Positions 8,148 through 22,028 of a stretch of 32,000 bases of DNA are shown here, one piece after another. Each line of letters starts with the position of its first letter. Positions within the stretch are counted from its first letter, which is position 1. The position numbers and the translations under genes were made by a program. The stretch is from Mycolicibacterium smegmatis (GTDB taxonomy: Bacteria; Actinomycetota; Actinomycetes; Mycobacteriales; Mycobacteriaceae), in contig NZ_LN831039.1 in assembly GCF_001457595.1 (NCBI RefSeq), positions 5,490,001 through 5,522,000 on the forward strand. Direction: 5' to 3'. Under the pieces are notes generated by a model. The model was given only the letters and a program-made list of their open reading frames with translations. It did no database searches and was not told the DNA's origin.

Positions 8148-8298
8148 GCGGATCCGAGGCTGACGGCTGCGTAAGAGAACTCTCAGGGGCCCCCGGCAGG
8201 TTTCACAGAATCCTCTAATACTGCTAACTTCGCTAATGAAGTGGGCATCCCCACTGTCGGGGGCCTGCAGTAAATCGGAGAACTCAGGAGTGAATGCC

Positions 8299-9336
8299 TT
8301 GAAGATCACGAATCTCAGTACGGCCGTGGCCGCTGCGGCCGTCGCCGCCGCCGCCATCCTCGGCACTGCGCCTGCCGCGTTCGGTGATGCCAGCGCCGTC
8401 ACCACCTCGACGCTCGGTAGCGCGGCAAAGCTGAACAACGGTGACGTCGTCCAGGCCTGGACCGTGACCGACCTCAAGCCCAGCAGCGACACGATCCCCT
8501 ACGAGGTCCGCGGCAAGCTGTGGGAGGTCACCGCCACCGATGAGGCCGTCCAGGGCAACGTGACCCCCATCGTCTCCAACTTCAACGTGCGGGCTGCCGA
8601 CGGCACCAACTACCGCGCACTGTTCCAGGTCGCCACCCCGCAGGGCGTGAACCCGTCGACCATCCCGCAGGGCGAGAAGGCCAGCGGCAAGATCTACTTC
8701 GACGTGACCGGCCCCGAGCCCACCACCGTCGTCTACAACGCCGGCGGCAAGGACCTGCTGGTGTGGGACAAGCCCGCCGCGTCCACGACCGCCCCGAGCG
8801 GTACCGGCCAGAGCCGCCCGGCCACGGCGTCGTCCCCGGCGACCGCCGCTCCCGCGGCCGCGGCCGCGGCCGAGGCCGAGTCCGAGGCTGTGACCGACGC
8901 AGAGACGGAGGCCACCCCGGCTCCGGCCGCGGCGTCGACCGCCGAGGGCGGCACCGAGGCCACCCCGGCCGGCGCGGGCAGCCGCGCCACCGACCTGCCT
9001 GCCGCCACCGCGGCGGAGGCCGAAACCGAGGCGACCGCGACCGACGCCGAGACCACCCCGGTGACCGAAGAGACCCCGGCCGCCCCCGCTCCCGAAGGTA
9101 CGACGCCGGTTTCGCTCGGCACGCCGGCCGCCGAAGGCACCCCGGCCGTCGAGGGAGCACCCGCCGGCGCCTCGGCGGGCAACGTCGCGACCGCGGTTCC
9201 GCCCGCCGCCCCGGCCGAGGGCGCTCCGGCCGAGGTTGCCGATCCCGCGCTGGTCCCGGCCGGTGTCCAGCCGACCACCACCGTGCCCGCCCCGGCGCCC
9301 ACCACGGCTCCGGTCAGCCACGGCCCCGCTGCCTGA
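8299..9336 (+). CDS. Secreted MPT63/MPB63-like (DUF1942) protein with an approximately 180-aa acidic Ala/Pro/Thr/Glu-rich C-terminal extension
   Basis: WTVTDLKPSSDTIPYEVRGKLWEVTATDEAVQGNVTPIVSNFNVRAADGTNYRALF...IPQGEKASGKIYFDVTGPEPT matches M. tuberculosis MPT63 almost motif for motif. The signal peptide is KITNLSTAVAAAAVAAAAILGTAPAAFG. I place the start at TTG 8299 (GGAG 8 nt upstream); GTG 8290 or ATG 8236 remain possible. Confidence 0.8.
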   Translation: MKITNLSTAVAAAAVAAAAILGTAPAAFGDASAVTTSTLGSAAKLNNGDVVQAWTVTDLKPSSDTIPYEVRGKLWEVTATDEAVQGNVTPIVSNFNVRAADGTNYRALFQVATPQGVNPSTIPQGEKASGKIYFDVTGPEPTTVVYNAGGKDLLVWDKPAASTTAPSGTGQSRPATASSPATAAPAAAAAAEAESEAVTDAETEATPAPAAASTAEGGTEATPAGAGSRATDLPAATAAEAETEATATDAETTPVTEETPAAPAPEGTTPVSLGTPAAEGTPAVEGAPAGASAGNVATAVPPAAPAEGAPAEVADPALVPAGVQPTTTVPAPAPTTAPVSHGPAA

Positions 9337-15916: not shown

Positions 15917-17234
15917 CCCTTCCGGCGGGCAGTCGCCCGCCTCTGAGGCGACCCCCGCGCAGCCGTCGGGCATATCGCGACGCAAGCTGTTCGGCGCTGC
16001 CGGGGTCACCGCTGCGGTGGTCGGCGCGGCCAGTGCGGGTGCACTGGCCGGCCGTGCCTCCGCGGCCGCCAACGCCCCGCACGGGGCGCTGAGCGGTCCG
16101 GTGCCGTTCCGCGGTGAACGGCAGGCCGGCATCATCACCGAGGCACAGGACCGCATGCACTTCTGCGCCTTCGACGTCACCACCGACAGCCGCGATGACG
16201 TCATCGCGCTGCTCAAGCAGTGGACCCAGATGGCCGAGCGCATGACCAAAGGCGAGGAGACCGAACCCGACGGAGCCGTCGGCGGCAACCCCTACTCCCC
16301 GCCCACCGATACCGGTGAGGCCCTTGGCCTTCCGGCCTCGCAGCTGACACTGACCATCGGGTTCGGCCCCGGCTTCTTCCGCAAGGACGGCAAGGACCGC
16401 TTCGGTATCGCCGACCAGCAACCCGCCGAGCTCAAGCCGCTGCCGAAGTTCCCCAACGAGACCATGGACCCCGCCCGCTCAGGCGGCGACATCTGCATCC
16501 AGGCCTGCGCCAACGACCCGCAGGTGGCCGTCCACGCCATCCGTAACCTGGCCCGCGTCGGGTTCGGCACGGTCGCGGTGCGCTACTCCCAGCTGGGGTT
16601 CGGACGCACCTCCTCCACCACGCGCGATCAGGCGACCCCGCGAAACCTGTTCGGGTTCAAGGACGGAACCAACAACATCAAGGCCGACGAGACCGACCTG
16701 CTGAACCAGCACGTGTGGGTCGCCGACGGCGACGGCCCGGCCTGGCTGACCGGCGGCACCTATCTGCTGACCCGCCGCATCCGCATGCGCATCGAGAACT
16801 GGGACCGCACCACGCTGCTCGAGCAGGAACGCGTGATCGGCCGGCAGAAGGGCAGCGGCGCACCGAACGGCCTGCAGGACGAGTTCGAGGAACTCGACTT
16901 CGACATGACCGACGCCAAGGGCAAGCCGATGATCGACGTCGACGCCCACGTGCGCCTGGTGTCCCCGCAGAACCTCGGCGGCATCGAGATCCTGCGCCGC
17001 GGATACAACTTCACCGACGGCACCGACGGCTTCGGCCACCTCGACGCCGGGCTGTTCTTCATCGCCTTCGTGCGAAGCCCCGAGAAACAGTTCATCCCGA
17101 TGCTCAGCGAGATGTCCCGTAAGGATGCGCTCAACGAGTACATCACCCACACCGGCACGGCCATCTTCGCCTGCCCGCCGGGTATCCCCGAGGGTGACTC
17201 GTCTGCGTACTGGGGTTCGACGCTGTTCTCGTGA
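15897..17234 (+). CDS. efeB: Dyp-type peroxidase / deferrochelatase EfeB, Tat-exported
   Basis: Twin-arginine signal (SRRKLFGAAGVTAAVVGAASAG). Dyp core motifs include GFKDGTNN and RRGYNF. The start overlaps efeO by 20 nt. Confidence 0.9.
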   Translation: MSSPSSDPSGGQSPASEATPAQPSGISRRKLFGAAGVTAAVVGAASAGALAGRASAAANAPHGALSGPVPFRGERQAGIITEAQDRMHFCAFDVTTDSRDDVIALLKQWTQMAERMTKGEETEPDGAVGGNPYSPPTDTGEALGLPASQLTLTIGFGPGFFRKDGKDRFGIADQQPAELKPLPKFPNETMDPARSGGDICIQACANDPQVAVHAIRNLARVGFGTVAVRYSQLGFGRTSSTTRDQATPRNLFGFKDGTNNIKADETDLLNQHVWVADGDGPAWLTGGTYLLTRRIRMRIENWDRTTLLEQERVIGRQKGSGAPNGLQDEFEELDFDMTDAKGKPMIDVDAHVRLVSPQNLGGIEILRRGYNFTDGTDGFGHLDAGLFFIAFVRSPEKQFIPMLSEMSRKDALNEYITHTGTAIFACPPGIPEGDSSAYWGSTLFS

Positions 17235-17370
17235 GTCCTTGGTTTCGTGTCGTGGCGCCCGGAGCGACGTAAATGTCGTTGCCCAGCGGGTTTGACGACG
17301 TTTTCGTCGCTCTCGGTGGGTTCTTGCGGGTCGGCTTTGTCTCTTTGGCCGGTTCAACGCCCCCACCCCC

Positions 17371-17460
17371 CGCGAGTGTGAAACCTCAGCGATTCCACTC
17401 CGCCATTGTGAAACCTCTGCTACTTTCCGGCCGATTTTTCGCAGAGGCTTCACACTCGCG
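17371..17460. repeat. Compound palindromic repeat, copy 1 (CGCGAGTGTGAAACCTCAGCG ... GTGAAACCTCTGC-loop-GCAGAGGCTTCACACTCGCG)
   Basis: The outer arms CGCGAGTGTGAA and TTCACACTCGCG are perfect complements. The inner 13-bp stem has one mismatch. The first 21 nt are 18/21 identical to copy 2 at 20992. Confidence 0.8.
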
Positions 17461-17518
17461 AAGCTTTGCTCAGATCTGCCTCGCTAACCCTCATCTCTCG
17501 TGGCCGTCTGTTACCTGA

Positions 17519-17728
17519 GGACAAGCCAAGGACACCGGCGACCTTGCCCGGGCCTTCACAGACATGATCCTGTACGCCTGCGTCAATAAAGTTGTCGAGG
17601 GTCGGTTACTTTTCGATCTCAGCTTGCTCACAACCATGCCCCCCGCGTGGTCGACGCTTGCCCAGGGCACGACATATCCCGATCTGGCACGGATGTACCA
17701 CGACCTTTTTGCGGATTACGGTCGTTAG
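17519..17728 (+). pseudogene. Possible gene remnant or orphan short ORF (...DTGDLARAFTDMILYACVNKVVEGRLLFDLSLLTTMPPAWSTLAQGTTYPDLARMYHDLFADYGR*)
   Basis: A 69-codon open frame with protein-like composition and moderately high GC3, whose only ATG is at 17564 (54 aa). A neighbouring frame reads EALLRSASLTLISRGRLLPEDK just upstream, which suggests a frameshifted helical-regulator C-terminus. This rests on by-eye impression only. Confidence 0.25.
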
Positions 17729-17953
17729 CGAGCCGAATGCCACGCGTTCAGACCCTTGCATGAAAGCCGGGTGTTGACGCCGTTCGAGCATCCAGCTCCC
17801 GAAACAACACGCGATACAACATTTTCGGCAAACTTCGATCTTTTCAAACGCAAAGATGCTGCTCGTTACGTCATTCGACGGACAGCGGAGCGCGGCTTTG
17901 CCGACTTAAAGTCCCTCCTACAAAACTGAACTTTTCCTGAGAGGGGCAGGCAA

Positions 17954-20932
17954 ATGGCAAGGCATCGCCGTAAGAAGATGACCAAGGCAGCCGTTGTCGG
18001 CACGGCAATCGCCGCGACCCTGGGCGTGGGAATCACGCCCACCATGGCCAACGCGGTCTCGAGCGACACCTACTTCATCGGCTTCCCCGATTGGCTCCCG
18101 ATTGGCGCTTCGAACTCGGTGGATGCCGACGCCGACGCGATCTACCAAGCGATCGTCGGATCGAAAGACTCCAGCCCCATTGTTGGTTGGGGCACAGGCG
18201 GAGTGAAGCTCGATCCGAAGTGGGTCCAGTGGTACAACCCGAACCTCGGCGGGTTGAGCCTGGGGGACATCAACCTCGGTGACCTGTCCTCAGGTGACCT
18301 CACAGCTCTGCTGGGTCAAATGGATCTCGGTCAGCTCACCAACTCGGACAAAGACCAGTACTACACGCTGCCCACGTGGGGCCAAACCGGCACCAAAGAG
18401 GTTATGGTCGATAACCCGGTGTACCAGAAGGCGTTTGAGGAAGCGCTCGCTGAGGTCATGGAGCAGGATCGCGACGCGATCCTGGCGGCAGAGAAGATCG
18501 AGCTGACTATCTCCTACTCCGTGCCTGAACCGGACTGGTGGGGTAAACAGACGACTGTCTCCATCCCGTTCCTCGGAAGCCTCACGGTCGGGCTTGCGCA
18601 GCAGTTCGGTCCATGGTCTCAGCAGAAGATCAACGGCCAGTCTGTGACTTCGATATCGACAACCGTGTCGATCGACAACCCGTTCAAGAATGATCCTGCG
18701 GCGCTCGACAAGTTCCTCGAAACCGGGAAGTATGACGGCACCTACACCGTGCCCACCATCGACCCCGTCACGGCCCTGGGGCTGAAAAGGCCGTCAGGGA
18801 CACTCGCCGGCGCCGCGTATGACTACATCGTCAAGACCTGGTTGAAGCCGATCAACATCGACCCGGTCAACTACACCTTCGACCGCACGAAATTCAATCT
18901 GCCCGGCGGAAGTTGGGAAGAACGCGCAGAAGACCTGATCGATCCGGAGATTCCGAAGCAGATCCCCGAGACCCAGCCCGTGTACGGCTGGCTTCCCGGC
19001 GGGTGGACCACGAACACCTTCGGTCAGTGGGTGTCTCCCACGGATCAGCTGGCGAACCTGGACCTGAGTGCCCTGGCCGGCCTTGCCAACGGCGACTTCG
19101 ATCTCTCGACCCTGGCCGGCCTGGCGAACCTGTCGCCGCAGACGATCGCGTACTTCCTGTCGGGTGACCTGGGATTCCTTGCCCCGCTGCTGAACTGGAC
19201 GCTGTACGCCCAGAACATCAACCTCATCGCATACGGTGACGGCGCCATCGCCACGGGTGAGGCGTACCGCCGCTTCATCGAAGCGGTGACGAGCGGTGAG
19301 ATCAAGGCGGGAGAACCGCGGACCGATGGCCGCTACATCGTCTTCGACGTCGATGAGGACGGCAATCCGATCCTGAAGGTGGTGAACCACTCCACGGGCA
19401 ACGGGGGCCTCGATGACATCATCGTGTCGTACCCGCTGCCGAACGACCTCGAGTTCCCGGACATGCCGGTCGATGCGAACGGGAACCCGCTGTACCCGTC
19501 GTACACCGAAACCCCCGGCGGCGTCATTGATGTCACGCTGATGACGCTGGCGTTGCTGCGCAACCCGGGCCGGCCCAACGGTGGTCTCTACGCCCGGTTT
19601 GCGCCGATCTACCAGGAGCTCACAGGCGTCAATCCGATCAGCCCCGAGCGCAAGGACGTGCTGTACGGGCTGCCGGATGACACCGTCGCCAAGCTGCTCA
19701 AGGGCGACGTCTCAGGCATCGGGCTCAGCGATCTGAACGACCTGCTGGTCTTCCTGAATGACGCCAACGGCAAACCAATGGTGATCACCATCAAGGCCGA
19801 CGCCACATGGGAATACGACCTGCTCTCGGACGCTCCGGTGACGGCCAACCCGATCGCGTGGGCCAACTCGGTGGCGTCGTCGATGCTGGTGTTCACGTAC
19901 GGTGCCGAGCTGATCAACCTCGCCACCAACCGTGAGGGCGGCGTGGGCGTGGTTGCCTACCAGGTGCCCGACGGGGAGTACGACGCCGGCAGCTTCTACG
20001 CCACGCTGACGTCCCAGGGCCTGCCGCTGCTCGCGCCGGCACGCCTGGTCGCCGGATTGCTCAGTGCGGCAACGGGTGAGGACGTCAACACTCCGCTGGC
20101 CGACGCGCTGGAGCCGGTGCTCAAGCTGCTGGTGAACACCAGCTACACCGATGCCGTGCGCAACGAGGACGGCACGTGGACACGCACGCTCGACCAGATG
20201 CACGTCCCGACGCTGTTCGGCACCCAGACCATCTCGCGTCAGCAGGCCGCCTTGCTGGCCGGAGACATCTTGGCCGAGTTCGGCAGGGGCGTGGGTGCGG
20301 AATACACCGACGTGGTCCAGCGGGTCACCGCCCGTGTCGTGAAGTTCCTGGAGGACAACGACATCAAGGTGCCCACCGAGATCAAGGAGGCCGCGGCCAA
20401 GCTCGCGACCGAGCCGGGCAAGGTCATCCAGACAGTCAGCCGTGAGGTCGGCACCGGGGTCAGCAAGGTTCTCGGCGCGGTCGACGCCAAACTGCCCGAA
20501 ACCCCGGCACCCACACAGGAGCAGCTGGCCGAGGGCCAGAAAGAGGTCGGCCAGGCGCTCGCGGAGGTCAACGAGGCCACCGAGGGAGCGGTGACCAAGG
20601 GCCTCAAGGACACCACGGCCTTCATCAACGACCCGATCACCCCGGTCCTCAAGGCAGGCAAGGACATCGAGTCGAAGGTGACCAAGCGGATCACCAAAAC
20701 CCAGAACAGCCTCGCCAAGGCGCAGGTCCGGGCCGGCAAGGTCACCGAGAAGCTCCAGAAGGGCGACATCAAGGGTGCCGTCAAACAGGTCGGCGAGAAC
20801 GTGCAGAACCGCGTCGACCGCCTGAAGAAGGACATCAACAACGGGGTCAAGAAGATCACCGGCAAGGACAAGACGAAGAGCACGAGCAGCAGCACCGACT
20901 CCGACAAGGACAAGGGCGGCAGCGAAGACTAG
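17954..20932 (+). CDS. 992-aa secreted protein: N-terminal region with Leu/Gly/Asp repeats, central PE-PPE-type (PF08237-like) alpha/beta-hydrolase-like core lacking the nucleophile Ser, Lys-rich amphipathic C-terminal tail
   Basis: Signal peptide is MARHRRKKMTKAAVVGTAIAATLGVGITPTMANA. IAYGDGAIATGEAYRRF occupies the position of the PE-PPE GYSQ(S/G)A motif. NPGRPNGGLYARF and EYDLLSDAP resemble further PE-PPE-domain motifs as I recall them. The last approximately 200 aa are K/E/T/V-rich helical repeats ending in STSSSTDSDKDKGGSED. The gene has its own terminator. Confidence 0.8.
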   Translation: MARHRRKKMTKAAVVGTAIAATLGVGITPTMANAVSSDTYFIGFPDWLPIGASNSVDADADAIYQAIVGSKDSSPIVGWGTGGVKLDPKWVQWYNPNLGGLSLGDINLGDLSSGDLTALLGQMDLGQLTNSDKDQYYTLPTWGQTGTKEVMVDNPVYQKAFEEALAEVMEQDRDAILAAEKIELTISYSVPEPDWWGKQTTVSIPFLGSLTVGLAQQFGPWSQQKINGQSVTSISTTVSIDNPFKNDPAALDKFLETGKYDGTYTVPTIDPVTALGLKRPSGTLAGAAYDYIVKTWLKPINIDPVNYTFDRTKFNLPGGSWEERAEDLIDPEIPKQIPETQPVYGWLPGGWTTNTFGQWVSPTDQLANLDLSALAGLANGDFDLSTLAGLANLSPQTIAYFLSGDLGFLAPLLNWTLYAQNINLIAYGDGAIATGEAYRRFIEAVTSGEIKAGEPRTDGRYIVFDVDEDGNPILKVVNHSTGNGGLDDIIVSYPLPNDLEFPDMPVDANGNPLYPSYTETPGGVIDVTLMTLALLRNPGRPNGGLYARFAPIYQELTGVNPISPERKDVLYGLPDDTVAKLLKGDVSGIGLSDLNDLLVFLNDANGKPMVITIKADATWEYDLLSDAPVTANPIAWANSVASSMLVFTYGAELINLATNREGGVGVVAYQVPDGEYDAGSFYATLTSQGLPLLAPARLVAGLLSAATGEDVNTPLADALEPVLKLLVNTSYTDAVRNEDGTWTRTLDQMHVPTLFGTQTISRQQAALLAGDILAEFGRGVGAEYTDVVQRVTARVVKFLEDNDIKVPTEIKEAAAKLATEPGKVIQTVSREVGTGVSKVLGAVDAKLPETPAPTQEQLAEGQKEVGQALAEVNEATEGAVTKGLKDTTAFINDPITPVLKAGKDIESKVTKRITKTQNSLAKAQVRAGKVTEKLQKGDIKGAVKQVGENVQNRVDRLKKDINNGVKKITGKDKTKSTSSSTDSDKDKGGSED

Positions 20933-20943
20933 GGGGAGGAAAG

Positions 20944-20977
20944 GGTGTGCCCCCTCTCGCAAGGGAGGGGGCACACC
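20944..20977 (+). terminator. Terminator hairpin of the 992-aa gene
   Basis: Perfect 13-bp stem GGTGTGCCCCCTC / GAGGGGGCACACC with an 8-nt loop, beginning 12 nt after the stop codon. Confidence 0.75.
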
Positions 20978-20988
20978 TATGCCTGAGG

Positions 20989-21054
20989 GTCCGCGAGTGT
21001 GAATCGTCAGCGAAAGAGTCGAGGGGTTTTCGCTGACGCTTCACACTCGCGGAC
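20989..21054. repeat. Palindromic repeat, copy 2 (27-nt arms, 12-nt loop)
   Basis: GTCCGCGAGTGTGAATCGTCAGCGAAA, loop GAGTCGAGGGGT, then TTTCGCTGACGCTTCACACTCGCGGAC, with one mismatch in 27. It abuts the mazG stop codon and shares the CGCGAGTGTGAA core with copy 1. Confidence 0.85.
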
Positions 21055-22028
21055 TACTCTTCGGGTTCGGCTTCCGAAGCAGACGACTCCGCACCAGGCC
21101 AGTACGCGCGCCACTCGTCCTCGGAGATCACCCCGAGCGGAGCGACGTCGAGTTCCTCGGGAACGTCCTCACCGCGGCGACCGGCAGCGACAGCGGCCTC
21201 GACCTCGCGCACGGTGTCCATGAATTCCAGGACAGCAGTGCGCAGTTCGTTCTCGGAGTCAGTGTCGGCAGACACCGAGACAGAAGTCAGAGAGGCCGGA
21301 ATCAGCTCGGCAGGCAGACCGGCCTGGCTCACGCGGGCCAGCACCTTCTGTGCCAGCGCCAAAGCGGGCTGCCCGGTGGGCACATCGTCCATCGACGATG
21401 CGCGTGCCTTGACCTTCTTCTCCTGCGCCTTGCGCTCTTCCCATTGCGCGAGCTGCTCGTCCAATGAAATGGACTCCCCCGCAAGCACGGCGGGCACGCG
21501 ATTGCCGAGTTTGCGCACCAGCGCATCGGCCACGTCGTCGATGCTGAACGGATGGTGTGGGGCGTCCTCGGCGATACGGGCGTGGAACAGCACCTGCAGC
21601 AGCACGTCGCCGAGCTCCTCGCGGAGTTCGTCGGCGTTGCCGCTGCGCACGGCGTCGAACAGTTCGTAGGTCTCCTCGAGCAGGTAGCGGCGCAGGGAAT
21701 CGTGGGTCTGCTCGCTCTCCCACGGCCCTGAGGTGCGCAGCTTGTCCATCAGCGCGACGGCGTCGACCAGACGCTCGCCGGGCTGGGGCTCGGGTGCGGC
21801 GATCAGCCGGTCACCGGCGGCCAAGCGCGCCTTGACAACCGGATGTTCGGGATCGGAGGACAACAGGACCGGGGCGTCTTCGCCGTCGTAGGCCGGCCGC
21901 GCCGAGGGCAGCGACCACGGCACCTTGACCGGCATCTCCTCGGTGTACTGGACCTCCCCGGTGAGGAACTCGACGGCGTCGACGGGAACCAGGGCGGGAC
22001 GGCGCGGATCCACCAGGACGACGATCAT
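21054..22028 (-). CDS. mazG: Nucleoside triphosphate pyrophosphohydrolase MazG
   Basis: 324 aa from ATG 22028, which overlaps the mfd stop (ATGA). The MazG core is [20 protein letters not shown]...[22 protein letters not shown]. Synteny matches Rv1021. The listed ORF start at 22121 lies inside mfd. Confidence 0.9.

What the first reader, a model, noticed from the sequence alone, without database searches (positions are those of the whole stretch)
17954..20932. Giant secreted protein with a PE-PPE-type pseudo-hydrolase core and an apolipoprotein-like Lys-rich tail
After a Sec-type signal peptide come about 400 residues with short Leu/Gly/Asp repeats (LGGLSLGDINLGDLSSGDLTALLGQMDLGQL, and LANLDLSALAGLANGDFDLSTLAGLANLSPQ with a direct nucleotide repeat). 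Then comes a region whose landmarks (IAYGDGAIATGEAYRRF, NPGRPNGGLYARF, EYDLLSDAP) line up with the mycobacterial PE-PPE lipase-like domain. The GxSxG nucleophile position reads G-D-G instead of S-Q-S/G, which predicts loss of catalysis. The last approximately 200 residues are K/E/T/V/Q-rich amphipathic helix repeats ending in a Ser/Asp/Lys tail, reminiscent of lipid-droplet or apolipoprotein-type binding modules. I have not seen a non-catalytic lipid-binding exoprotein of this architecture described.
Basis: partly seen in the sequence, partly recalled or inferred. Interest (0 to 1): 0.65.

Follow-up and report, generated by a model that had tools for sequence, protein, structure and literature searches.

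The report
Secreted catalytically dead PE-PPE esterase homologue
This Mycolicibacterium smegmatis gene (probably MSMEG_5421) encodes a large exported protein whose cutinase-like "PE-PPE" esterase domain has lost its catalytic serine and histidine; it belongs to a large, uncharacterised clade of such dead-enzyme proteins in environmental mycobacteria, and its function is still unknown.

Summary
The 992-aa ORF at 17954-20932(+) is real and is 99% identical to an M. smegmatis protein that databases already name "PE-PPE domain-containing protein". Profile-profile alignment to the ten canonical M. tuberculosis PE-PPE domains (95% probability, E 2e-8) puts G428 on the nucleophile Ser and D622 on the catalytic Asp. 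The catalytic His falls on F647/T648. No His or Cys column is conserved anywhere in the core. Of 163 relatives with a locatable elbow, 161 have Gly there and none has Ser. This is therefore a whole clade (at least 350 clusters at 50% identity, seen only in Mycobacteriaceae), not a one-off. The core is under purifying selection (omega 0.03-0.2). A conserved Sec-type signal peptide (P-x-x-A-x-A) supports export. The C-terminal 180 residues are a basic, significantly amphipathic helical tail. They fail Pfam Apolipoprotein membership (13 bits against a cut-off of 90). New here: an AlphaFold-confident orphan domain (aa 135-347) is inserted into the fold on Leu/Gly/Asp linkers and carries a strain-hypervariable cassette. 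Lipid binding, envelope localisation and any link to EfeUOB remain untested. Verdict: a new non-catalytic variant of a known domain family, of moderate interest.

The parts
17939..17946 (+). Shine-Dalgarno-like GAGAGGGG, 7 nt before the ATG
   Evidence: Read directly from the sequence.
17954..20932 (+). Whole gene: 992 aa plus stop codon. Probably MSMEG_5421 of M. smegmatis.
   Evidence: ORF list. 99% identical to D806_053030 of strain MKD8; the mc2155 copies are ABK70056.1 and AFP41715.1. MSMEG_5420 is the EfeB homologue and MSMEG_5422 is MazG, so the gene between them should be MSMEG_5421.
17954..18055 (+). Sec-type signal peptide, aa 1-34. Predicted cleavage after A-N-A34.
   Evidence: Basic n-region (RHRRKK). 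The h-region has the top Kyte-Doolittle score in the protein, 1.53. P29/A32/A34 are conserved in 42-44 of 45 homologues. No Cys.
18059..18244 (+). Conserved N-terminal segment, aa 36-97 (TYFIGFPDWLPI..., helix, GWGTGGV). Proposed to supply the first strands and helix of the hydrolase-like sheet.
   Evidence: Nearly invariant T39, Y40, G43, P45, W47, W79, G80, G82. Strand 37-42 has pLDDT about 90 in the second model. Sequence similarity to the canonical N-half is NOT detectable (hhalign E 0.38), so this assignment is an inference.
18245..18337 (+). Leu/Gly/Asp-rich stretch 1, aa 98-128. Low-confidence flexible linker on the N-terminal side of the inserted domain.
   Evidence: Motif position. 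Low pLDDT in the full-length model (about 30-55; residues 77-98 flagged below 50). Present only in homologues that also have the N-domain (alignment).
18356..18994 (+). Inserted orphan alpha/beta domain, aa 135-347.
   Evidence: pLDDT 85-94 in both models. No Pfam or NCBIfam hit. No significant Foldseek match in PDB or BFVD attributable to it. Absent from the 690-890-aa family members.
18450..18900 (+). Hypervariable cassette inside the N-domain, about aa 166-316.
   Evidence: 22-72% nucleotide identity to another M. smegmatis strain, while the rest of the locus is 98-100% identical. N-domain dN 0.22 and dS 0.48, against core dN 0.006 and dS 0.12.
19049..19141 (+). Leu/Ala/Asn/Asp repeat 2, aa 366-396, with an internal 13-aa duplication. 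Linker on the C-terminal side of the inserted domain.
   Evidence: Nucleotide repeat 19071-19090 / 19110-19129, 90% identical. Low pLDDT, about 37-52.
19187..20353 (+). PE-PPE (cutinase-like alpha/beta-hydrolase) homology core with its conserved C-terminal extension, aa 412-800.
   Evidence: Pfam PF08237 at 25.4 bits, above the gathering score of 21. hhalign to canonical PE-PPE: 95.4% probability, E 1.9e-8. Foldseek BFVD hits to mycobacteriophage PE-PPE esterases: E 5.9e-5 and 3.6e-4, probability 1.00. Omega 0.03-0.20.
19223..19249 (+). Degenerate nucleophile elbow L-I-A-Y-G428-D-G-A-I. The G428 codon is 19235-19237.
   Evidence: INLIAYGDGAIATG aligns to VVVLGFSQGASVAT of Rv1430. G428 and G430 are invariant in 45 sequences. 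Gly at this position in 161 of 163 relatives, Ser in none.
19295..19513 (+). Variable insertion of about 75 aa between the elbow helix and the next core strand, aa 448-520.
   Evidence: The elbow-to-NPGR distance is 113 aa here, against a minimum of 36 and a median of 52 in the clade and about 35 in canonical domains. Low pLDDT.
19562..19585 (+). N-P-G-R-P-N-G-G loop, aa 537-544, shared with canonical PE-PPE domains (NPNNPNGG).
   Evidence: Invariant N537, P538, G539, N542, G543, G544. Aligned to the canonical motif.
19808..19837 (+). W-E-Y-D622-L-L-S625-D626-A-P loop, aa 619-628. D622 is the catalytic-Asp equivalent.
   Evidence: Aligned to QYDGFADFP (Asp276 of Rv1430) and to EYDIIADAP of the Phabba esterase. 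D622, S625 and D626 are 100% conserved in the subfamily. In the wider clade D622 is D in only 77 of 112 rows.
19892..19915 (+). Position of the lost catalytic His, aa 647-654 (F-T-Y-G-A-E-L-I).
   Evidence: His302 of Rv1430 aligns to T648 or I654. The His of Phabba aligns to F647 by gapless register (sequence). No conserved His column exists in aa 405-800.
20324..20857 (+). Basic amphipathic helical tail, aa 791-968.
   Evidence: pI 9.5 with 25 Lys. Hydrophobic moment z = 6.3 against shuffles. Long helices in both models. Only sub-threshold matches to ZorA coiled coil, Apolipoprotein and DUF948. Omega 0.40 against M. goodii.
20858..20929 (+). Ser/Asp/Lys-rich, probably disordered C-terminal end, aa 969-992.
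   Evidence: Composition. pLDDT below 50. Length and sequence vary among orthologues.
20943..21062 (.). Two strong hairpins between the convergent stop codons of this gene and mazG. Likely a bidirectional terminator region.
   Evidence: MFE -98.5 kcal/mol, z = -10.65 against shuffles. Sub-threshold Rfam Ms_IGR-8 matches on both strands.

Best explanation
The gene encodes a Sec-exported, roughly 100-kDa mycobacterial envelope or extracellular protein. It is built on a catalytically dead PE-PPE (cutinase-like alpha/beta-hydrolase) domain.

Shown:
- It is homologous to canonical PE-PPE esterases from the nucleophile elbow to beyond the end of the Pfam domain.
- The nucleophile Ser is replaced by an invariant Gly (G428), and the catalytic His is absent (F647/T648).
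- The Asp equivalent (D622) is kept in this subfamily but relaxed in the wider clade.
- The non-catalytic landmark loops NPGRPNGG and YD..SDAP..NP..ANS are retained, and the core is under purifying selection.
- It is one member of a large clade of such proteins, seen only in Mycobacteriaceae.

Inferred:
- The domain no longer hydrolyses esters. It has been kept as a binding or scaffolding module, most plausibly for an ester-linked envelope lipid or glycolipid of the kind its catalytic relatives act on.
- The basic amphipathic helical tail holds the otherwise acidic protein on the anionic or hydrophobic cell-envelope surface.
- An orphan domain with a strain-hypervariable cassette is inserted into the fold on two flexible Leu/Gly/Asp linkers and is displayed outward.
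For: - Identity and annotation.
- Pfam PF08237 at 25.4 bits, above the gathering score of 21.
- Canonical PE-PPE sequences and triad definition (Ser199/Asp276/His302 of Rv1430; GxSxG/S): PMC3037379.
- hhalign of 89 Gly-type sequences against the canonical domains, 95.4% probability, E 1.9e-8, giving G428=Ser, D622=Asp, T648=His. A weaker independent alignment (E 3.9e-4) is.
- The Phabba phage esterase is a full PE-PPE domain (80.5 bits) with CYSQG / EYD / YDH. It is hit by the model in Foldseek (E 3.6e-4, probability 1.00) and by sequence (tblastn E 0.04; hhalign 86.6%).
- 161 of 163 relatives have Gly at the nucleophile position and none has Ser.
- No conserved His or Cys column in the core; the mature protein has only 2 His and no Cys.
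- At least 350 clusters at 50% identity with E<=1e-3. The 46 genomic loci are nearly all labelled Mycobacteriaceae.
- Purifying selection on the core (omega 0.03-0.20, against MazG 0.04-0.08).
- Conserved AxA signal peptide and no other TM-like segment.
- Tail amphipathicity z 6.3 and pI 9.5.
- The canonical PE-PPE profile reaches cutinase-fold structures (1QOZ at E 7e-4).
Against: - Foldseek against the PDB found no significant alpha/beta-hydrolase match for either model. The BFVD matches have low TM-scores (0.29-0.33) and rmsd of 15-18 A.
- The N-terminal half of the canonical domain (first strand, oxyanion region) is not detectably aligned.
- The Pfam hit is partial and only 4 bits above threshold.
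- Nothing tests ligand binding, localisation or lack of activity. No proteomic record was found.
- S625 and D626 are invariant and lie next to the old active site, so a rewired active site is not excluded.
- Tail-mediated envelope attachment is pure inference.
Confidence: 0.5

Rival explanations
1. Display or recognition protein. The functional head is the inserted hypervariable N-domain (aa 135-347), for example an adhesin, a biofilm-matrix component, a kin or phage recognition determinant, or a phage-receptor decoy. The dead hydrolase core and helical tail would serve only as a conserved stalk and anchor. This is analogous to neuroligin-type non-catalytic alpha/beta-hydrolase adhesion proteins (comparison from general knowledge).
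For: - The N-domain is confidently folded (pLDDT 85-94).
- It is flanked by low-confidence Leu/Gly/Asp linkers.
- It carries a cassette that is 22-72% identical between two M. smegmatis strains that are otherwise 98-100% identical, with dN 0.22 and dS 0.48.
- The gene evolves faster than its syntenic neighbours: 59-69% identity against 77-92%.
Against: - Many family members (690-890 aa) lack the N-domain entirely yet keep the Gly-type core and tail. The conserved function of the clade therefore cannot reside in that domain.
- No fold or sequence match gives the N-domain a binding function.
Confidence: 0.25
2. It is still an enzyme. A rewired active site, for example invariant S625/D626 with K614, R548 or Y621 near the old pocket, would catalyse ester hydrolysis or acyl transfer without the classical Ser-His-Asp triad.
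For: - S625, D626, D622, Y621, K614 and R548 are invariant in the subfamily.
- The strong purifying selection on the core is as expected for an enzyme.
- The catalytic relatives Chp1 (Rv3822) and Rv1184c also have Ser at the S625-equivalent position (alignment).
Against: - In the wider Gly-type clade S625 is Ser in only 88 of 115 rows and D622 is Asp in only 77 of 112.
- No His or Cys is conserved to act as a general base or nucleophile.
- The S625-equivalent is Ala in most active canonical members and in the Phabba esterase, so it is not a known catalytic position.
Confidence: 0.12
3. It is an accessory of the adjacent EfeUOB ferrous-iron uptake system and is regulated by iron.
For: - The order efeU-efeO-efeB-target-mazG-mfd is conserved in four related species (L001-L004); a fifth locus (L007) shows target-mazG-mfd only.
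- MSMEG_5420 was flagged in a low-iron fitness screen (PMC6684656).
Against: - A 720-nt gap with a strong palindromic element (17390-17472) separates efeB from the gene.
- Relatives at 41-46% identity sit at unrelated loci without efeUOB.
- The low-iron screen passage found for MSMEG_5418/5420 does not mention MSMEG_5421.
- The protein has no metal-binding motif, no Cys and only 2 His.
Confidence: 0.05
4. It is an evolutionary relic: a decaying former esterase gene without function.
For: Loss of the triad residues.
Against: - An intact 992-codon ORF is kept in all orthologues.
- Dozens of invariant columns.
- Omega of 0.03-0.20 in the core.
- The clade has at least 350 sequence clusters, including tandem copies.
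- The transcript is detected and regulated in RNA-seq: MSMEG_5421 at log2FC -3 (bioRxiv 10.1101/2024.07.19.603033).
Confidence: 0.02

Closest known systems
Canonical PE-PPE domain serine hydrolases (Pfam PF08237): M. tuberculosis PE16/Rv1430 esterase, Chp1/Rv3822, Rv1184c, and mycobacteriophage esterases such as Phabba gp36
   Same: - Homologous from the nucleophile elbow to the end of the Pfam domain and into the following LPLL.P.R...ALEP.L..LVN.GYTD extension.
- Shared NP..PNGG loop and YD...D.P...NP...N(A/S) loop.
- Same beta-strand/elbow/helix arrangement in the model.
- Restricted to mycolic-acid actinobacteria and their phages.

   Different: - Nucleophile Ser replaced by invariant Gly, and catalytic His absent.
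- No PE or PPE N-terminal domain; a Sec signal peptide instead.
- Three large insertions, including a 210-aa orphan domain.
- A 180-aa basic amphipathic tail.
- The N-terminal half of the canonical domain is not detectably aligned.
Non-catalytic secreted alpha/beta-hydrolase-fold proteins, e.g. mycobacterial MPT51/FbpC1 (the Ag85 paralogue lacking the catalytic apparatus) and neuroligins (Ser replaced by Gly).
   Same: An exported alpha/beta-hydrolase-fold protein that lost its nucleophile but is evolutionarily conserved. This implies a binding or adhesion role instead of catalysis.
   Different: - A different alpha/beta-hydrolase family: cutinase-like PE-PPE, not the Ag85/esterase-D or cholinesterase type. 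No sequence relationship was tested or claimed.
- The partner or ligand is unknown here.
Exchangeable apolipoproteins and other amphipathic-helix surface binders (Pfam Apolipoprotein PF01442, ApoLp-III PF07464, phasins, YtxH/DUF883/DUF948)
   Same: - Long helices with significant amphipathic periodicity and K/E/T/Q/V-rich composition.
- Weak profile matches to these families in the target and, more strongly, in paralogues.
   Different: - Scores are far below the family thresholds: 13 bits against 90 for PF01442 in the target.
- No discrete 11/22-mer sequence repeats were found.
- The resemblance is compositional and biophysical, not demonstrable homology.

Membership tests
PE-PPE domain (Pfam PF08237) | Significant match to the family profile | tested here: met
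   25.4 bits against a gathering score of 21, E 1.1e-5, but covering only model positions 130-227. The orthologue P0005 scores 26.7 bits; P0030 scores 20.9, just below threshold. hhalign of the wider clade against ten canonical domains: 95.4% probability, E 1.9e-8, canonical columns 90-234.
PE-PPE domain as a serine hydrolase (Sultana et al. 2011, PMC3037379) | GxSxG/S pentapeptide with the nucleophile Ser (Ser199 of Rv1430), hydrophobic at position 2 and Gln at position 4 | tested here: not met
   The aligned pentapeptide is A426-Y-G428-D-G430. G428 and G430 are invariant. Gly in 161 of 163 relatives, Ser in none.
PE-PPE domain as a serine hydrolase | Catalytic Asp (Asp276 of Rv1430) | tested here: met
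   D622 aligns to it and is 100% conserved in the 104-row subfamily. It is Asp in only 77 of 112 rows of the wider Gly-type clade.
PE-PPE domain as a serine hydrolase | Catalytic His (His302 of Rv1430) | tested here: not met
   It aligns to T648, to I654, or to F647 (gapless register with Phabba). No column in aa 405-800 reaches 60% His. The only His in the mature protein are H479 and H750, and neither appears among the invariant or nearly invariant columns.
PE-PPE domain / cutinase-like alpha/beta-hydrolase fold | Predicted structure matches alpha/beta-hydrolase (cutinase/LysB-like) structures | tested here: inconclusive
   No PDB match at E<=1e-3 for either model. In BFVD the top three hits are mycobacteriophage proteins, two of them named hydrolase/esterase (E 5.9e-5, 3.6e-4, 2.5e-3; probability 1.00), but with TM-scores of only 0.29-0.33. 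The link to solved cutinase-fold structures is only transitive, through the canonical profile (1QOZ at E 7e-4).
PE-PPE domain as a serine hydrolase | Esterase/lipase activity | not testable with these tools
   Needs recombinant protein assays.
PE / PPE protein families (type VII secretion substrates) | N-terminal PE (PF00934) or PPE (PF00823) domain | tested here: not met
   No such Pfam hit even at E<=10. The N-terminus is a Sec-type signal peptide with a conserved AxA site.
Exchangeable apolipoproteins (Pfam PF01442 Apolipoprotein A1/A4/E) | Profile match at or above the gathering score | tested here: not met
   The tail alone scores E 0.086 and 13.0 bits against a cut-off of 90. Paralogues score 27-30 bits. 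Against the PDB, ApoLp-III scores E 0.1-0.23.
Exchangeable apolipoproteins | Tandem 11/22-residue amphipathic helical repeats | tested here: inconclusive
   Amphipathicity z 6.3, and hydrophobicity autocorrelation peaks at lags 11 (0.34), 18 (0.35) and 44 (0.34). No discrete repeats were detected at the DNA level.
Exchangeable apolipoproteins | Reversible lipid-surface binding | not testable with these tools
   Needs liposome or lipid-overlay experiments.
Sec-exported protein | Cleavable N-terminal signal peptide (basic n-region, hydrophobic h-region, AxA site) and experimental export | tested here: inconclusive
   The sequence features are present and conserved. No dedicated predictor was available. 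No proteomic detection was found in two supplements searched.

The most novel reading that the evidence does not exclude
Environmental and fast-growing mycobacteria carry a large, undescribed clade of Sec-exported pseudo-esterases. These would be PE-PPE/cutinase-fold proteins that have swapped catalysis for binding of mycomembrane ester lipids. A basic amphipathic 'apolipoprotein-like' tail would tether them to the envelope. In the MSMEG_5421 lineage they would also present a recombining hypervariable domain at the cell surface, for example as a phage-receptor, decoy or strain-recognition determinant. That would make them a new class of mycomembrane-organising or recognition proteins.
Probability: 0.2. 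Interest if true: 0.65.

Novelty: new variant of a known kind. Interest (0 to 1): 0.42.

Why it matters
PE-PPE domain proteins are treated in the literature as serine esterases or acyltransferases that remodel the mycobacterial outer membrane. Genome annotation propagates names such as "alpha/beta hydrolase" and, for paralogues, "AAA family ATPase".

This work indicates that a whole clade lacks the nucleophile and the base yet is under purifying selection, has diversified widely (at least 350 clusters at 50% identity) and carries export signals. That corrects those annotations. It also defines a pseudo-enzyme family whose ligand could point to unknown steps in envelope lipid handling or surface recognition.

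M. smegmatis is genetically tractable, so the function is directly testable. No relative was found in the M. tuberculosis complex, and there is no obvious link to a long-standing open question. This limits the impact.

Tried and rejected
- PDB sequence and profile searches with the protein and with family profiles gave only non-significant helical-bundle noise on the tail.
- Foldseek against the PDB with the full-length model (mean pLDDT 62) and with the 36-800 model (mean pLDDT 78) gave no hit at E<=1e-3.
- hhalign of the conserved N-terminus (aa 30-140) against the canonical N-half gave E 0.38. The idea that aa 36-97 supply strand 1 and helix A rests only on model confidence. A chimeric alignment with the insertions removed extends over canonical columns 17-234, but at only 52% probability.
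- NCBIfam gave only a ZorA coiled-coil sub-threshold match on the tail (27 bits against 190). I rejected it as compositional.
- Rfam and promoter/terminator scans of 17000-21200 found no riboswitch or leader in the 720-nt upstream gap and no sigma-70-like promoter, only palindromic Ms_IGR-8-like elements.
- A conserved-neighbour analysis at 15 paralogue loci found no universal partner gene. There is a GT2-like glycosyltransferase plus an anti-sigma module in one closely related species group only.
- The literature has no functional study of MSMEG_5421. There is one RNA-seq mention. It is absent from the M. smegmatis cell-wall proteome supplement and from one other supplement.
- The SigM/ESX-4, Gupta 2018 and O-mycoloylome papers mention other PE-PPE proteins, not this clade.
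- I rejected the idea that the two Leu/Gly/Asp stretches are copies of one repeat (z about 2).
- I rejected an Asp nucleophile at D429. The register puts Y427 at a 'small' position, and D429 is replaced by L, Q or M in the wider clade.

Full report
**Observation.** The window is from Mycolicibacterium smegmatis. The 992-aa ORF at 17954-20932(+) is 99% identical to D806_053030 of strain MKD8. Its mc2155 copies are ABK70056.1 ('alpha/beta hydrolase family protein') and AFP41715.1 ('PE-PPE, C-terminal domain protein'). It lies between efeU-efeO-efeB and the convergent mazG-mfd. MSMEG_5420 is the EfeB/YwbN homologue (PMC6684656) and MSMEG_5422 is MazG, so the gene is very probably MSMEG_5421. The 'direct nucleotide repeat' is a 20-nt, 90% identical pair 39 nt apart. 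The two Leu/Gly/Asp stretches are not significantly related to each other.

**Export.** The N-terminus has a basic n-region and the only TM-like hydrophobic stretch of the protein. Its P-x-x-A-x-A motif is conserved in 42-44 of 45 homologues. There is no Cys, so it is not a lipoprotein. There is no PE or PPE domain. Export by Sec is therefore well supported by sequence but not shown experimentally. I found no proteomic record.

**Is the core a PE-PPE domain?** Pfam PF08237 matches above its gathering score (25.4 against 21 bits), but only for aa 617-731 against model positions 130-227. I rebuilt the ten canonical M. tuberculosis PE-PPE domains from Figure S1 of Sultana et al. 2011 (PMC3037379). 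That paper defines the family by a GxSxG/S pentapeptide and the triad Ser199/Asp276/His302 of Rv1430. In my alignment those three are invariant, with the right spacings.
- Profile-profile comparison of the 45-member family with the canonical set gave E 3.9e-4 over aa 530-691.
- A broader alignment of 89 clade members gave 95.4% probability and E 1.9e-8. That alignment starts exactly at the elbow: INLIA-Y-G-D-G-A against VVVLG-F-S-Q-G-A.
- It puts G428 on the nucleophile Ser, D622 on the Asp and T648 on the His.

An independent reference agrees. The model's second-best structural match is mycobacteriophage Phabba gp36 'esterase', which is also hit weakly by tblastn. It is a full PE-PPE domain (80.5 bits) with CYSQG, EYD and YDH. 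It aligns gaplessly to our AYGDG, EYD and LVF, and shares the downstream LPL..P.R...L.P.V..GY.DV extension.

**Is catalysis lost?**
- G428 and G430 are invariant.
- Among 163 relatives whose elbow can be located, 161 have Gly and none has Ser.
- No column of aa 405-800 reaches 60% His or Cys in either the near subfamily or the far clade.
- The mature protein has only two His (H479, H750), neither conserved, and no Cys.
- D622, S625 and D626 are 100% conserved in the near subfamily. In the far clade the Asp-equivalent is Asp in only 77 of 112 rows, while D626 is near-invariant.

The classical triad is thus gone at the clade level. A rewired site around S625/D626 cannot be excluded without coordinates or assays, but it lacks a conserved base.

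**Fold.** The first full-length model was mediocre (mean pLDDT 62). It gave no significant PDB match. A second model of aa 36-800 with 72 sequences reached mean pLDDT 78, with 89-96 in the core strands and helices. Foldseek against the PDB was again negative. Against BFVD the three top hits were mycobacteriophage proteins, two of them named hydrolase or esterase (E 5.9e-5, 3.6e-4 and 2.5e-3; probability 1.00; 280-349 columns; TM 0.29-0.33). The canonical PE-PPE profile reaches cutinase-fold structures by sequence (acetyl-xylan esterase 1QOZ at E 7e-4; cutinases and LysB more weakly). Fold membership is therefore supported transitively and by phage models, but not by a direct match to a solved structure. 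The three large insertions plausibly explain this.

Only three long strands lie in aa 412-800. The confident N-terminal strand 37-42 probably completes the sheet, but hhalign does not detect this.

**Architecture.**
- Signal peptide: aa 1-34.
- Conserved N-terminal strand and helix: aa 36-97.
- Leu/Gly/Asp linker: aa 98-128.
- Orphan alpha/beta domain: aa 135-347, pLDDT 85-94, with no Pfam, PDB or BFVD match.
- Leu/Ala/Asn/Asp linker: aa 366-396.
- Dead PE-PPE core with its extension: aa 412-800.
- Basic amphipathic helical tail: aa 791-968.
- Ser/Asp/Lys end: aa 969-992.

The shorter family members (690-890 aa) lack the orphan domain and both linkers. That region is therefore a lineage-specific insertion.

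**Tail.** It is significantly amphipathic (z 6.3) and basic (pI 9.5) on an acidic body. It fails Apolipoprotein membership: 13 bits against 90 in the target and 27-30 bits in paralogues. Equally weak YtxH, DUF883, ApoLp-III and phasin matches accompany it in one or more of the proteins scanned. 'Works like an amphipathic surface-binding helix' is plausible. 'Is an apolipoprotein domain' is not supported.

**Distribution and selection.** An exhaustive profile search found 350 clusters (50% identity) at E<=1e-3 and 66 at E<=1e-30. The named relatives are all Mycolicibacterium or Mycobacterium, often mislabelled 'AAA family ATPase'.

A scan of species-representative genomes gave 46 loci. Nearly all are labelled Mycobacteriaceae, and none is from the M. 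tuberculosis complex. A few metagenome-assembled genomes carry other taxon labels, such as Sericytochromatia, proteobacterium and Bifidobacterium breve. I take these to be mis-binned contigs. The scan patterns were specific to near relatives.

The full efeUOB-target-mazG-mfd order holds in four species, and a fifth locus (L007) shows target-mazG-mfd only. The target is 59-69% identical across these loci, against 77-92% for its neighbours.

Nei-Gojobori estimates give the following:
- Core: omega 0.03-0.05 within M. smegmatis and 0.15-0.20 against M. goodii.
- MazG control: 0.04-0.08.
- Tail: 0.40 against M. goodii.

The gene is under selection and is not decaying. One RNA-seq preprint reports MSMEG_5421 as the most down-regulated gene (log2FC -3) on overexpression of the RpfB switch, so it is transcribed.

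**Mechanism.**
- Shown: a conserved, exported PE-PPE homologue without the nucleophile or the base.
- Inferred: it acts by binding or scaffolding instead of hydrolysis, most plausibly on ester-linked envelope lipids. The tail would mediate envelope attachment, and the variable domain would be displayed outward.

Rivals are a recognition or adhesin role centred on the N-domain, a rewired enzyme, an EfeUOB accessory, and a relic. They are weighed in the structured fields. The EfeUOB link is weak because of the 720-nt gap with a palindromic element and the absence of efeUOB at other family loci.

**Verdict.** The pseudo-hydrolase reading is supported, and the apolipoprotein and lipid-binding reading is an untested analogy. 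This is a new, non-catalytic variant of a known domain family that databases already label as PE-PPE. I found no description of the clade in the literature I could search. Interest is moderate.

Noticed in passing
window 18450-18900 (aa ~166-316 of the target); compared with L048 and L049: A block of about 450 nt inside the gene is only 22-72% identical between two M. smegmatis strains that are 98-100% identical across the rest of the locus. Block dN is 0.22 and dS 0.48, against dS of 0.01-0.16 elsewhere. This suggests allelic replacement by recombination, or diversifying selection on a displayed domain.
   Followed up: partly
window 17390-17472 and 20983-21062: Similar long palindromic elements with a GTGTGAA...TTCACAC core flank the gene on both sides. 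Both give sub-threshold Rfam Ms_IGR-8 (RF02470) matches on both strands. The downstream region folds at -98.5 kcal/mol (z -10.7) and also contains a second GC-rich hairpin at about 20943-20977. They are likely a repeated intergenic terminator or REP-like element.
   Followed up: partly
window 17235-17953: An unusually long (720 nt), lower-GC (about 0.58) intergenic region lies upstream of the gene. It has no Rfam family at threshold and no sigma-70-like promoter match. Much of it is poorly conserved in M. goodii (10-76% identity in most 100-nt windows).
   Followed up: partly
paralogue proteins P0328, P0330, P0342 and others: Many Gly-type PE-PPE paralogues in Mycolicibacterium are named 'AAA family ATPase' or 'ATPase' in RefSeq. 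This is apparently because of their coiled or amphipathic tails, which give 27-30-bit Pfam Apolipoprotein matches. They have no ATPase domain in the Pfam scans, so this is a likely systematic misannotation.
   Followed up: partly
L010 (6038-8308 and 8762-10975) and L016 (5945-8371 and 8868-11387): Tandem duplicated copies of family members occur in M. wolinskyi and Mycobacterium sp. PS03-16. In the L013-L018 species group the gene sits next to a GT2-like glycosyltransferase and a STAS / anti-sigma kinase pair.
   Followed up: no
window 8236-9336 (+): A 366-aa ORF with a strong DUF1942 domain (E 5e-57), a domain of unknown function, lies next to a Ppx/GppA phosphatase gene.
   Followed up: no
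L047:1027-2013 (Mycobacterium phage Phabba gp36) and phage ScoobyDoobyDoo gene 31: Some mycobacteriophages encode a signal-peptide-bearing canonical PE-PPE esterase with an intact Ser/Asp/His triad. It lies among small hypothetical genes and between a tRNA nucleotidyltransferase and a peptidyl-tRNA hydrolase gene. One RefSeq copy of the Phabba record labels the same gene 'DNA binding protein'.
   Followed up: partly
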